From the IMG/VR virus record IMGVR_UViG_3300028591_000120: a stretch of DNA of 64,000 nt, one strand, 5' to 3'. The DNA is from an uncultured virus (IMG/VR IMGVR_UViG_3300028591_000120). Lineage: Duplodnaviria > Heunggongvirae > Uroviricota > Caudoviricetes. The translations under genes and the position numbers were made by a program. Shown one piece after another: positions 32,121 to 32,438 of the stretch. Position 1 is the stretch's first letter; each line of letters opens with the position of its first letter. The notes under the pieces are model-generated. The model was given only the letters and a program-made list of their open reading frames with translations, had not been told where the DNA came from and ran no database searches.

Positions 32121-32438
32121 ATTTGACAGGTACCAAAGAAACGGCGCAAGCTAGGACAAATGGGGCTTATGGTAAATAAGCCGGCTCTCCGGAGCCTTCG
32201 TGGGACCGTAGCCCACCCTGTCAACTCATTTGAGAGATACCAAAGAAACGGCGCAAGCTAGGACAAATGGGGCTTATGGTAAATAAGCCGGCTCTCCGGA
32301 GCCTTCGTGGGACCGTAGCCCACTCTCTCAACTCATTTGACAGGTACCAAAGAAACGGCGCAAGCTAGGACAAATGGGGCTTATGGTAAATAAGCCGACT
32401 CTTCGGGGTCTTCGTGGGACCGTAGCCCACCCTGTCAA
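32121..32438 (+). ncRNA. Three tandem 107-bp tRNA-like structured RNAs
   Basis: Units at 32124, 32231, 32338 with compensatory changes in two stems; promoter 32064, terminator ~32482-32522. Confidence 0.85.

What the first reader, a model, noticed from the sequence alone, without database searches (positions are those of the whole stretch)
32121..32438. Triplicated tRNA-like cloverleaf RNA with built-in covariation
Three 107-bp units lie between a promoter and a terminator. Each folds as a class II tRNA-like shape: a 7-8 bp acceptor stem, TA, a CCA/TGG D-stem with an enlarged loop holding a GGC-GCAA-GCT hairpin, GGCTTA-TGGTAAA-TAAGCC (GTA, Tyr-like, at the anticodon position but G instead of U33), a variable arm, and GTGGG-ACCGTAG-CCCAC as a T-arm with a non-canonical loop. 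The differences among copies preserve pairing: TGACAGG/CCTGTCA becomes TGAGAGA/TCTCTCA in copy 2, and GGCTC-TCCG-GAGCC becomes GACTC-TTCG-GGGTC in copy 3. This is direct evidence of selection on RNA structure. It is unlikely to decode. It may be a dosage-amplified decoy for anticodon nucleases, tRNA-targeting defence (tRNA-Tyr is the known target of retron Ec78 PtuAB) or a synthetase, or an antitoxin-mimic array.
Basis: partly seen in the sequence, partly recalled or inferred. Interest (0 to 1): 0.85.

Follow-up and report, generated by a model that had tools for sequence, protein, structure and literature searches.

The report
Tandem remodelled tRNA-Tyr mimics in phage
A large gut phage carries three head-to-tail copies of a small RNA that is a rebuilt tyrosine tRNA with its flexible loops replaced by stable hairpins, one member of a widespread undescribed family that probably helps such phages cope with bacterial attacks on tyrosine tRNA.

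Summary
Bases 32121-32441 hold three 107-nt units on the + strand, between a Bacteroidota-type promoter box and a strong terminator. All three fold alike, and ARAGORN and Rfam call none of them.

A covariance model built from the three copies finds the tRNA-Tyr genes of Lak megaphages as its best outside hits. It also finds 110 homologous units (89 distinct) in 55 metagenome loci and two ~320-kb phage genomes, in arrays of 1-4. Of 32 pairs, 24 covary, and 99% of cells are paired.

Each unit is a bacterial-type tRNA-Tyr body: A73, a long variable arm, and the tRNA-Tyr D-arm motif with its two G's. A hairpin is inserted at D-loop positions 16/17. The anticodon arm is closed to 7 bp under an invariant GGUAA cap with G33. 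The variable arm mostly carries a UUCG-type cap.

Related jumbo phages encode their own TyrRS, the only synthetase found in two genomes. Of 7 further complete TyrRS-bearing genomes, 6 carry such units. Some of those units have caps without the Tyr anticodon.

My best reading is a non-decoding tRNA-Tyr mimic made in bulk as a decoy against tRNA-Tyr-directed defence. A nuclease-hardened decoder is the main rival. No function was tested.

The scan had noted a related 317-kb phage before, for a different feature (e1-5665568).

The parts
32025..32059 (+). Terminator-like hairpin and T-run of the upstream 94-aa gene (31731-32015). It marks the start of a separate transcription unit.
   Evidence: Fold of 32018-32066: a 10-bp stem, dG -10.2, z -3.3. 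The same layout (hairpin, T-run, then CTTGTATATTTG) is seen upstream of related arrays.
32064..32071 (+). TATATTTG box, read as the -7 element (TAnnTTTG) of a Bacteroidota-type promoter. A TTTG lies at 32046-32049.
   Evidence: Read directly from the sequence. TTTG-N17-23-TAnnTTTG occurs within 260 nt upstream of the first unit in 20 of the 54 sources printed. The window itself fails that regex, with only 14 nt of spacing. The consensus is recalled, not tested, and the sigma-70 scan does not cover this promoter type.
32121..32227 (+). Unit 1. U1 = 32124, A72-A73-C74 = 32223-32225. D-loop hairpin 32143-32152, cap loop UGGUAAA 32170-32176, variable arm 32183-32196, T-loop ACCGUAG 32205-32211.
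   Evidence: TRF, fold, model R1 136.4 bits.
32228..32334 (+). Unit 2. The interior is identical to unit 1. The acceptor helix is changed at two pairs by compensated substitutions (UGAGAGA/UCUCUCA).
   Evidence: (134.7 bits).
32335..32441 (+). Unit 3. The acceptor helix is as in unit 1. The variable arm is changed (GACUC-UUCG-GGGUC), and the 3' tail is CAA instead of CUC.
   Evidence: (133.4 bits).
32442..32479 (+). 3' trailer with a small AT hairpin (TGAAAT-AA-ATTTCA). It differs from the conserved ACCTCC-containing trailer seen in roughly thirty relatives.
32480..32522 (+). Intrinsic terminator: a 14-bp hairpin with an 11-nt loop, then six U.
   Evidence: Fold dG -20.8, z -5.5, 0 of 200 shuffles as good. 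Hairpin plus T-run is also seen after most related arrays.

Best explanation
Each unit is a remodelled copy of the phage clade's own tRNA-Tyr. I think it no longer decodes. It keeps the tRNA-Tyr body so that proteins which recognise tRNA-Tyr still bind it.

The array would be transcribed early from its own promoter as one precursor. The tRNA-maturation enzymes would then cut it into monomers of about 100 nt: RNase P at U1, and 3' trimming to A73/C74 with CCA completed. Relatives encode a CCA-adding enzyme.

Every flexible single-stranded region of tRNA-Tyr has been closed or capped.
- D-loop positions 16/17 carry a GNRA-capped hairpin.
- The anticodon loop is a 7-bp stem under GGUAA, with G33.
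- The variable loop is mostly a UUCG-type tetraloop on a 5-bp stem.

Made in bulk (3 copies, own promoter), such an RNA would work as a poorly cleavable stand-in. It would soak up or block a host nuclease aimed at tRNA-Tyr, of the Septu/PtuAB or colicin-E5 kind, so that Tyr-tRNA supply survives infection. The phage's own TyrRS and canonical tRNA-Tyr would keep that supply running.

Shown: the tRNA-Tyr descent, the structure and selection on it, the array and family, and the co-occurrence with phage TyrRS. Inferred: processing, binding partners and counter-defence.
For: 1. Descent from tRNA-Tyr.
- R1's best hits in Lak-A1, Lak-B2, Lak-C1 and LR745206 are their tRNA-Tyr genes, at 41-44 bits.
- The D-arm motif TACCAAAG..GACAAATGG, with only 2 nt between the halves, occurs in tRNA-Tyr-like genes of many bacteria. 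I checked 4 of them with the model, at 41-47 bits: Mariniphaga x3 and an Eubacteriales MAG.

2. Structure under selection.
- Over 89 distinct units, 99.0% of 2743 cells are paired.
- 24 of 32 pairs change on both sides.
- 0 of 500 shuffles reach the observed values, and slid controls give 32-48% paired.
- Many G-U pairs fit the + strand only.

3. The body is kept.
- U1-A72 is present in 86 of 86 distinct units with letters at that pair.
- The 3' end reads A-A-C in all 87 units that reach it.
- The two G's before ACAAA are kept.
- The T-loop is UUCGAAU in 75 of 89, and the variable arm is a 5-bp stem.

4. The loop is closed. Positions 32:38 read UA 61, CG 13, UG 11, GC 1 and other 3. GGUAA is present in 86 of 89.

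5. The anticodon is dispensable in the wider family. Of 20 hairpin-bearing units in TyrRS-encoding jumbo phages, the caps are GGUAA in 5, GGUGA in 1, GUUCGUG in 11 and UUUCGUGA in 3. These cap types are mixed within single arrays.

6. In the 334-kb relative, a canonical tRNA-Tyr (also with U1-A72) coexists with the array.

7. Link to TyrRS.
- Both near-complete relatives encode a full TyrRS (TIGR00234, 376 and 352 bits).
- It is the only synthetase among all 87 ORFs of at least 280 aa in one genome.
- It is the only one among 103 of 106 such ORFs in the other.
- Of 18 further contigs with a TyrRS relative, 11 have model hits, as do 6 of the 7 that are at least 90% complete.
- 0 of 3 Lak phages, which have no arrays, encode one.

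8. Published precedent.
- Septu and retron-Eco7 PtuAB cleave tRNA-Tyr in the variable arm.
- T5 resists through a distinctive variable loop.
- T6 escapes by tandem amplification of its tRNA-Tyr gene.
- Over-expressed phage tRNA-Tyr partly protects the host tRNA (PMC13096335, abstract and sections 7, 8, 10; PMC11555353, abstract).
- Colicin E5 absolutely needs a pyrimidine at position 33 (PMC1635277, abstract).

9. Presence in RNA libraries. Contigs of 137 nt with 0 differences lie on the array in three metatranscriptome runs from at most 3 samples and 3 studies. In two of those runs (one sample) nothing lies on the flanking genes. This is a weak hint only.
Against: - No experiment or read-end data show processing, charging, binding or any effect on defence.
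- The RNA-library contigs bridge unit junctions and could be DNA carry-over.
- No host is identified, and no tRNA-Tyr nuclease is known for it.
- A pure decoy does not explain why GGUAA is invariant in this subfamily. It also does not explain why a phage would carry a TyrRS.
- One relative has canonical tRNAs for the 19 other amino acids but only a dubious 70-nt tRNA-Tyr call besides the units. That would fit the units being its tRNA-Tyr.
- The search pattern fixed TACCAAAG, GACAAATGG and GTAAA, so part of their conservation is by construction.
- The alignments were fitted to the model.
- Co-occurrence with TyrRS may simply reflect common descent within one phage clade.
- The window itself (64 kb) shows no TyrRS. 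That its phage has one is inferred from collinearity with the 317-kb relative: 54 of 115 ORFs match.
Confidence: 0.4

Rival explanations
1. Nuclease-hardened working tRNA-Tyr. The units are charged by the phage TyrRS and read UAU/UAC, inefficiently because of G33 and the closed loop. Gene dosage makes up for the low efficiency. Together with TyrRS and the CCA-adding enzyme they would form a self-contained Tyr-decoding module that survives host attack on tRNA-Tyr.
For: - GUA and A37 are invariant in this subfamily: 86 of 89 units read GGUAA.
- The acceptor arm, T-arm, A73 and C74 look like those of the phage's real tRNAs.
- Single units sit inside phage tRNA clusters (L124, L159).
- The 317-kb relative has canonical tRNAs for 19 amino acids but no good tRNA-Tyr.
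- The unit without the D-loop hairpin passes Rfam tRNA at 36.6 bits, and ARAGORN calls it tRNA-Tyr.
- Relatives encode TyrRS as their only synthetase.
- G33 is compatible with decoding at reduced efficiency in Candida tRNA-Ser(CAG) (passages in PMC11415595 and PMC13492127).
Against: - Positions 32:38 covary as a Watson-Crick pair, giving a 5-nt loop.
- In the wider family the cap is often GUUCGUG or UUUCGUGA, with no Tyr anticodon, in the same arrays as GGUAA units.
- The 334-kb and 401-kb relatives also have a canonical tRNA-Tyr.
- An engineered, much larger insertion at the same D-loop site of E. coli tRNA-Tyr was not stably expressed (PMC5397188 passages).
- The window's own T-loop is not canonical.
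Confidence: 0.2
2. A partner or regulator of the phage TyrRS with a role outside decoding. It could be a tyrosine-accepting tRNA-like RNA that feeds a non-ribosomal reaction, or one that tunes or sequesters a TyrRS.
For: - Units co-occur with a phage TyrRS.
- All cap types keep G-U-R where the Tyr anticodon G34-U35-A36 lies.
- A73 and the long variable arm are kept. That these are the elements bacterial TyrRS reads is recalled knowledge.
Against: - TyrRS lies about 150 kb from the array in the 317-kb genome, so there is no operon link.
- No candidate transferase was seen next to the arrays.
- The co-occurrence may be phylogenetic only.
Confidence: 0.15
3. A processing and stability module. The tRNA-shaped units mainly recruit RNase P/Z-type cleavage to release or stabilise the transcript's 3' trailer, which would act as a small antisense RNA.
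For: In roughly thirty of the 54 sources printed, the array is followed by a conserved trailer, (A)ACCATATTTAATACCTCCTTTCTT, and then a terminator. That trailer is the complement of a ribosome-binding site plus start codon. An earlier scan note describes such trailers in the related 317-kb phage (e1-5665568).
Against: - The window's array has no such trailer.
- GAAAGGAGGT with up to 1 mismatch occurs 0 times in the window.
- Units in tRNA clusters lack the trailer.
- Two to four copies with an invariant cap are more than a cleavage signal needs.
Confidence: 0.08
4. A type III toxin-antitoxin style array, of the ToxI or pseudo-ToxI kind, that neutralises an endoribonuclease toxin.
For: It is a tandem array of a structured RNA between a promoter and a terminator. 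Conserved junction sequence (..AAC-NN-AUUU..) could be a cleavage site.
Against: - The unit is 107 nt. Known ToxI-type repeats are about 34-45 nt (recalled).
- No toxin gene follows the array.
- 0 of 14 neighbouring ORFs hit PADLOC, and none hits a nuclease family in Pfam.
- The unit is plainly tRNA-derived.
Confidence: 0.02
5. Decaying duplicated tRNA-Tyr pseudogenes without function.
For: tRNA finders do not call them.
Against: - 24 of 32 pairs covary over 89 distinct units.
- Loops are invariant.
- Position, promoter and terminator are conserved across dozens of phage contigs.
Confidence: 0.02

Closest known systems
Phage-encoded tRNA-Tyr used against Septu / retron-Eco7 PtuAB (T5 tRNA-Tyr; tandem tRNA-Tyr amplification in T6 escapers)
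   Same: - It is a phage-borne tRNA-Tyr sequence expressed from its own strong promoter.
- The variable arm differs from the host's.
- Tandem repetition raises dosage.
- A homing-type HNH endonuclease gene lies nearby (30732-31286).

Sources: PMC11555353 (abstract) and PMC13096335 (abstract and sections 7, 8, 10).
   Different: - Those are canonical, decoding tRNAs. The repeats arose in the laboratory as 718-bp units that include segB.
- Here the repeats are natural and 105-124 nt long.
- The tRNA is rebuilt, with a D-loop hairpin, G33 and a closed loop.
- The host is a Bacteroidota-type organism and no defence system is identified.
Canonical bacterial class II tRNA-Tyr (Rfam RF00005)
   Same: - 7-bp acceptor stem.
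- U8.
- 3-bp D-stem CCA/UGG.
- The D-loop flanks AAAG..GGACAAA.
- GUA at positions 34-36, and A37.
- Long variable arm followed by UUC.
- 5-bp T-stem.
- A73.
   Different: - A hairpin insert of 13-30 nt in the D-loop.
- G33 instead of U33, and 32:38 paired.
- U1-A72 instead of G1-C72.
- No hit by ARAGORN or Rfam.
Tyrosine-accepting viral tRNA-like structures (for example the BMV TLS)
   Same: It is a viral RNA that imitates tRNA-Tyr without being a decoder, and it is a substrate of TyrRS (PMC11791061; search listing and abstract only).
   Different: Those sit at the 3' end of plant RNA virus genomes and have a quite different fold. Here the RNA is a free-standing gene array in a DNA phage and is clearly homologous to tRNA-Tyr.
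Candida albicans tRNA-Ser(CAG) with G33
   Same: It is a natural tRNA with G at position 33, which distorts the anticodon arm and lowers decoding efficiency (passages in PMC11415595 and PMC13492127).
   Different: It is a single eukaryotic decoder tied to codon reassignment. It has no D-loop insert, no closed loop and no array.
ToxI-type antitoxin RNA arrays (type III toxin-antitoxin systems)
   Same: A tandem array of a structured RNA under one promoter.
   Different: The unit size, the tRNA ancestry and the lack of an adjacent toxin gene all differ. Features of ToxI are recalled, not fetched.

Membership tests
tRNA (Rfam RF00005) / canonical tRNA-Tyr | Recognised by tRNA covariance or heuristic models | tested here: not met
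   - ARAGORN: no call on the array.
- Rfam: no hit at gathering score or at E<=10.
- In the 317-kb relative, RF00005 at E<=0.01 hits 32 places but not the two units.
- Only the relative that lacks the D-loop hairpin passes, at 36.6 bits.
tRNA (Rfam RF00005) / canonical tRNA-Tyr | 7-nt anticodon loop with U33 and unpaired 32/38 | tested here: not met
   G33 is present in 86 of 89 distinct units. Positions 32:38 read UA 61, CG 13, UG 11, GC 1, other 3.
tRNA (Rfam RF00005) / canonical tRNA-Tyr | D-loop of ordinary size (about 7-11 nt) | tested here: not met
   There are 14-30 nt between AAAG and GACAAA in 87 of 89 units, against 2 nt in bacterial tRNA-Tyr genes.
tRNA (Rfam RF00005) / canonical tRNA-Tyr | Cloverleaf helices, class II variable arm, A73, T-loop | tested here: met
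   The helices covary. A73 is present in all units. The T-loop is UUCGAAU in 75 of 89. The window's three copies have ACCGUAG, with bases 54 and 58 swapped from U/A to A/U.
tRNA (Rfam RF00005) / canonical tRNA-Tyr | Aminoacylation and decoding | not testable with these tools
   This needs charging assays and translation assays.
Type III toxin-antitoxin antitoxin RNA (ToxI-like) | An endoribonuclease toxin gene directly downstream of the repeat array | tested here: not met
   The downstream ORFs are 41 and 51 aa with no family hit. 0 of 14 neighbours hit PADLOC, and there are no nuclease hits in Pfam.
Type III toxin-antitoxin antitoxin RNA (ToxI-like) | Short repeat unit (about 34-45 nt; recalled) | tested here: not met
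   The period is 107 nt, and 105-124 nt in relatives.
Phage anti-defence tRNA-Tyr (T5/T6 type) | Phage-encoded tRNA-Tyr sequence with its own promoter and raised dosage | tested here: met
   tRNA-Tyr descent. Promoter box and terminator. Three copies here, and 1-4 in relatives.
Phage anti-defence tRNA-Tyr (T5/T6 type) | Rescue of phage growth from a tRNA-Tyr-cleaving defence | not testable with these tools
   No host and no defence system are identified. Plaque assays would be needed.

The most novel reading that the evidence does not exclude
Ruminant-gut jumbo phages carry a private, nuclease-proof tyrosine-decoding kit. It would consist of arrays of structurally rebuilt tRNA-Tyr, a co-evolved phage TyrRS and a CCA-adding enzyme. 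The rebuilt tRNA has a D-loop hairpin, G33 and tetraloop-capped arms. If it is charged and does decode, it would be the first natural elongator tRNA to work with an extra helix in the D-loop and a purine at position 33. It would also be a ready-made orthogonal pair.
Probability: 0.2. Interest if true: 0.9.

Novelty: new variant of a known kind. Interest (0 to 1): 0.72.

Why it matters
Phage tRNAs have only recently been recognised as weapons against bacterial defences that cut tRNA, and tRNA-Tyr is the best-documented target. This family shows what long-term natural selection does to a tRNA-Tyr gene in that setting. It is multiplied in tandem, each flexible loop is replaced by a stable cap, and it travels in genomes that also carry a tyrosyl-tRNA synthetase.

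Either outcome is directly testable with one in-vitro transcript and one recombinant enzyme.
- If the RNA is an uncleavable decoy, it is a new class of RNA-based anti-defence factor.
- If it decodes, it breaks two near-universal rules of tRNA architecture and offers a natural orthogonal pair.

The family has more than 100 sequenced members and very strong covariation. That is enough to define a new RNA family that current tRNA finders and Rfam miss.

Tried and rejected
**Searches that led nowhere**
- Exact 17-19-mers of the unit in IMG/VR gave 0 hits, 3 chance hits in GC-rich coding DNA, and 0 hits (the chance hits were read).
- blastn of the locus against GenBank phages found no match.
- Looking for relatives through neighbouring proteins gave little. 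The GP88-like protein found 2 distant loci, and the 94-aa protein found none.
- A loose two-part pattern gave 99 loci, of which 80 were searched with the model. Only one of those held units.

**Ideas rejected**
- A pseudoknot between ACGG in the D-loop insert and CCGU in the window's T-loop. Relatives with a UUCGAAU T-loop cannot form it.
- A minus-strand small protein reading into the array. ORFs from the first downstream ATG are 1-55 aa long, in three different frames relative to the unit.
- Plus-strand ORFs over the units. Unit lengths of 105-124 nt and stem covariation argue against coding.
- Alternative genetic code. Reading TAG or TGA as sense adds little ORF coverage: 0.68 rises to 0.73 and 0.75.

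**Uninformative results**
- The upstream 94-aa protein has no Pfam, PHROG or PADLOC family. Atlas hits are all below 0.9, to helical proteins of unknown function.
- No whole genome is held for the window.
- Earlier scan notes for this genome: none.
- RNA-library contigs cannot show RNA ends, strand or level. Parts of the stretch without cover in those runs are no evidence.

**Literature**
Eight full-text searches found no description of a tRNA-Tyr-like RNA with a D-loop hairpin or G33 in phages. This covers only the held open-access library.
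Full report
**What is there**

Tandem Repeats Finder reports one array at 32121-32439, with period 107, 3.0 copies, 94% matches and no indels. The three units are 97% identical column by column.

Folded alone, each unit gives the same minimum-energy shape:
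- an 8-bp closing stem;
- a 3-bp CCA/UGG stem whose loop holds a small GCAA-capped hairpin;
- a 7-bp arm;
- a 5-bp arm with a UCCG or UUCG cap;
- a 5-bp arm that abuts the closing stem.

The z-scores are -3.5 to -3.7, and 0 of 200 shuffles fold as well. The reverse strand folds worse, with z between -2.4 and -3.0.

ARAGORN finds only tRNA-Leu(taa) at 27459-27542 and tRNA-Met at 31330-31404. Rfam gives nothing on the array at gathering scores or at E<=10.

A TATATTTG box lies at 32064-32071, just after the terminator-like hairpin of the upstream 94-aa gene. I read it as a Bacteroidota -7 element, from a recalled consensus. A 14-bp hairpin at 32480-32518 followed by six U closes the unit (dG -20.8, z -5.5).

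**The copies' differences**

Copy 2 differs from copy 1 at four positions, which form two fully compensated pairs of the closing stem. Copy 3 has one compensated pair, one U-A to U-G change and one loop change in the 5-bp arm, plus two changes in the 3' tail. No pair is broken.

In simulation, four random substitutions leave all pairs intact with probability 0.059. Given that they fall in stems, the probability is 0.002 for four and 0.008 for three. The window alone is suggestive. The family provides the proof.

**Setting**

The window has 32% GC and many small genes. It has HNH endonucleases, an RlaP-type nucleotidyltransferase, phosphoesterases and a DNA methylase. The standard genetic code fits.

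The RlaP-like protein is 42% identical to those of the Prevotella Lak megaphages. No whole genome is held for the window.

The window is collinear with the first ~96 kb of a 317,464-bp IMG/VR phage contig, handle G001. Of 115 window ORFs of at least 80 aa, 54 have tblastn matches there at 33-92% identity, and the genes flanking the array are in the same order.

Runs that hold the stretch are labelled sheep and bovine gut metagenomes.

**It is derived from tRNA-Tyr**

I built a covariance model (R1) from the three copies. Searched over Lak-A1, Lak-B2, Lak-C1 and two 630-640-kb phages, it gives as its best hits exactly the genes that ARAGORN calls tRNA-Tyr(gta), at 41-44 bits. In LR745206 the hit is an odd tRNA-Tyr-like gene.

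A pattern for the D-arm motif, allowing only 2 nt between its halves, matches 45 loci in the bacterial genome collection. Most of these matches are 32 nt long. The four that I checked with R1 are canonical-looking tRNA-Tyr genes at 41-47 bits: Mariniphaga x3 and an Eubacteriales MAG.

Compared with those genes, the unit keeps:
- U8 and the CCA/UGG D-stem;
- the D-loop flanks AAAG and GGACAAA, including the two G's;
- GUA and A37;
- the long variable arm followed by UUC;
- the 5-bp T-stem and A73.

It differs in five ways:
- a hairpin is inserted where positions 16/17 lie;
- positions 32-33 read U-G instead of C-U;
- U1-A72 replaces G1-C72;
- the variable arm is a 5-bp stem;
- in the window only, the T-loop is ACCGUAG.

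The 3' end reads A73-C-N-N, as in the window's own tRNA-Leu and tRNA-Met and in the Mariniphaga genes. A tRNA-type maturation followed by CCA addition is therefore plausible, though inferred.

**A large family**

A gapped pattern found units in G001 and in a 334,687-bp contig, G002, in IMG/VR. It also found 55 loci in metagenome contigs.

R1 over the window and 57 loci gave 110 matches at E<=0.001, of which 89 are distinct. Arrays hold 1-4 units at a period of 105-124 nt. Among arrays away from contig ends, 7 have one unit, 25 have two, 11 have three and 1 has four. These are lower bounds, because a regex found one more unit after the last hit in 8 loci.

On the alignment, 99.0% of 2743 cells are standard pairs and 24 of 32 pairs change on both sides. 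No shuffle out of 500 reaches the observed values, and slid controls give 32-48% paired. The alignment is fitted to the model, which inflates these figures somewhat, but the margin is very large. Frequent G-U pairs fit the + strand.

Other tallies over the 89 distinct units:
- Positions 32:38 behave as a Watson-Crick pair: UA 61, CG 13, UG 11, GC 1 and other 3. The "anticodon loop" is therefore a 7-bp stem under a 5-nt GGUAA cap, present in 86 of 89.
- The D-loop hairpin cap is GCAA in 70 of 89.
- The variable-arm cap is UUCG, UCCG or UACG in 67 of 89.
- The T-loop is UUCGAAU in 75 of 89.
- The window's ACCGUAG and the related AGCGUAG (5 units in all) swap bases 54 and 58 from U/A to A/U.

The pattern fixed TACCAAAG, GACAAATGG and GTAAA, so their conservation is partly by construction. 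G33, the 32:38 pairing and the hairpin were not fixed.

Neighbouring units differ in the acceptor 5' strand in 45 of 46 adjacent pairs from 47 distinct arrays. In the window, a fold of the whole transcript mispairs the identical acceptor strands of units 1 and 3. Different helices in neighbouring units may therefore be selected to keep units folding on their own. That is inference.

**Neighbourhood**

A tRNA-Met(cat) lies 0.8-1.9 kb upstream on the same strand in most loci that are long enough to show it.

Clustering of ORFs gives these conserved neighbours:
- the 94-106-aa upstream gene, in 30 loci;
- a 117-aa and a 58-aa gene downstream on the other strand, in 31 loci each;
- an SprT-like gene, in 18 loci.

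None has a known function bearing on RNA. In L124 and L159 a single unit instead sits inside a phage tRNA cluster next to a tmRNA gene.

**The TyrRS link**

Both near-complete relatives encode a full-length tyrosine-tRNA ligase. It scores 376 and 352 bits against the TIGR00234 equivalog, and the G001 enzyme also has the SYY C-terminal domain. Both also encode a CCA-adding enzyme.

- In G001, TyrRS is the only synthetase among all 87 ORFs of at least 280 aa. G001 also has RtcB, a second RNA ligase, a formyltransferase, a tmRNA and an amber-suppressor tRNA.
- In G002, TyrRS is the only synthetase among the 103 of 106 such ORFs that I scanned, at E<=1e-15.
- A search with the G001 enzyme found relatives (41-100% identity) on 19 IMG/VR contigs.
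- R1 hits 11 of the 18 other contigs at E<=1e-4, and 6 of the 7 that are at least 90% complete. The miss is a 572-kb contig whose enzyme is only 41% identical.
- The three Lak phages, which have a canonical tRNA-Ty r but no array, have no such enzyme.

This is an association within what may be one phage clade, so it is not proof of a functional link. That the window's own phage has a TyrRS is inferred.

**Does it decode?**

For decoding:
- GUA and A37 are invariant in this subfamily.
- The acceptor/T minihelix is intact.
- G001 has canonical tRNAs for 19 amino acids but only a dubious 70-nt tRNA-Tyr call. That call is below Rfam's list and does not fold as a cloverleaf.
- G33 is known in a working tRNA, Candida tRNA-Ser(CAG), where it lowers efficiency (passages in PMC11415595 and PMC13492127).

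Against decoding:
- Positions 32:38 pair.
- G002 and a 401-kb relative carry a canonical tRNA-Tyr as well as an array. The G002 gene itself has U1-A72.
- Among 20 hairpin-bearing units in 12 loci of TyrRS-encoding relatives, the cap is GGUAA in 5, GGUGA in 1, GUUCGUG in 11 and UUUCGUGA in 3, and single arrays mix these caps.
- What is constant is the tRNA-Tyr body and a G-U-R triplet, not the Tyr anticodon.
- A much larger engineered insert at the same D-loop site of E. coli tRNA-Tyr was not stably expressed, whereas one in the variable loop was active (PMC5397188 passages).

I therefore lean to a non-decoding mimic.

**Why a mimic of tRNA-Tyr**

Published work provides the context.
- Septu and retron-Eco7 PtuAB cleave tRNA-Tyr in the variable arm.
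- T5's tRNA-Tyr resists through a distinctive variable loop and a strong promoter.
- T6 escapes by tandem amplification of its tRNA-Tyr gene.
- Over-expressed phage tRNA-Tyr partly protects the host tRNA.
- Colicin E5 cuts tRNA-Tyr best and absolutely needs a pyrimidine at position 33.

These come from PMC13096335 (abstract and sections 7, 8, 10), PMC11555353 (abstract) and PMC1635277 (abstract).

In the family, each nuclease-accessible loop of tRNA-Tyr is closed or capped, position 33 is a purine, and dosage is raised by natural tandem copies. This fits a stand-in that binds but resists such enzymes. No host or host nuclease has been identified, and nothing here tests binding.

**Expression**

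Three metatranscriptome runs, from at most 3 samples and 3 studies, hold 137-nt contigs with no differences that lie on the array and bridge unit junctions. In two of these runs (one sample) nothing lies on the flanking genes. Contigs of related units reach depths of 20-28. Contigs cannot show ends, strand or level, and DNA carry-over is possible. This is a weak hint only.

**Known or new**

Rfam 15 has no family for it. GenBank phages have no similar DNA. Eight full-text searches found no description. The library covers open-access papers only.

I file it as a new variant of a known kind: phage tRNA genes used in the conflict over tRNA. It is a new RNA family that standard tRNA finders miss.

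Noticed in passing
Related loci, e.g. L129, L115 and L147, directly after the last unit. Not in the window.: Roughly thirty of the 54 sources printed carry a conserved + strand trailer, (A)ACCATATTTAATACCTCCTTTCTT, between the array and its terminator. It is the exact complement of a strong ribosome-binding site, a spacer and ATG, and it resembles the 3' end of 16S rRNA (recalled). Minus-strand ORFs starting at that ATG are not conserved. This may be an antisense or anti-Shine-Dalgarno small RNA released from the tRNA-like precursor.
   Followed up: partly
L115:2907-2985 (= G001:34451-34529), directly upstream of the two units: A further tRNA-like element (Rfam tRNA 37.4 bits; not called by ARAGORN). 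It has a short variable region and a 7-bp arm capped by GUAAAA, and it sits between the promoter and the first unit. Contigs in sheep-gut runs show the same leader in strains close to the window's phage (tables 5 and 7).
   Followed up: partly
L172:1446-1540 (-), L159:1040-1121 (-), L124:463-544 (+), L125:2060-2150 (+): A second conserved element, AGGGAAC..ACAGCAA....GTTCCCT, closed by a 7-bp stem. In three of four copies it carries the canonical tRNA-Tyr anticodon-loop sequence ACTGTAAAT. It lies right after single units in tRNA clusters. In G001, ARAGORN calls it a 70-nt tRNA-Tyr.
   Followed up: partly
L011 (LR745206:419833-419927) and L015: A 635-kb phage has a tRNA-Tyr-like gene with a 6- or 8-nt anticodon loop; ARAGORN reports a two-base 'anticodon' gt. 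A neighbouring tRNA is called with a four-base anticodon, gtag. It sits within a run of repeated tRNA-Asp, tRNA-Pro and tRNA-Gln genes.
   Followed up: no
L190 (97.9-kb contig binned to a Bacilli MAG), 1-533: Three more distant units at ~212-nt spacing with 25-nt D-loop inserts. Their caps read UCGUAAA or UCAGUAAA, and two of the three have an encoded CCA end. This may be a phage contig in a bacterial bin, and it shows the family reaches beyond the Bacteroidota-type phages.
   Followed up: no
window 30732-31286 (+), next to tRNA-Met 31330-31404: An HNH homing-type endonuclease gene lies directly upstream of tRNA-Met and 0.8 kb from the array. Its best match in G001 lies elsewhere, at about 160 kb. 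Homing endonucleases next to phage tRNA genes are reported to drive tandem amplification (PMC13096335).
   Followed up: no
window 2020-3417, 7325-7984, 8361-9095; G001 L231:3581-4924, L232:5949-6884, L232:8336-9766: The clade carries an RNA-repair and tRNA-maintenance set: an RlaP-type nucleotidyltransferase and two metallophosphoesterases in the window. The 317-kb relative has RtcB, a second RNA ligase, a CCA-adding enzyme with an HD domain, Met-tRNA formyltransferase, a tmRNA and an amber-suppressor tRNA.
   Followed up: partly
G002: L259:3550-4755, L263:3543-4787, L263:10036-11235, L263:12987-14183: Four TnpB/IS605 OrfB-type genes in the 334-kb phage. Three of them lie within or beside its main tRNA cluster.
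   Followed up: no
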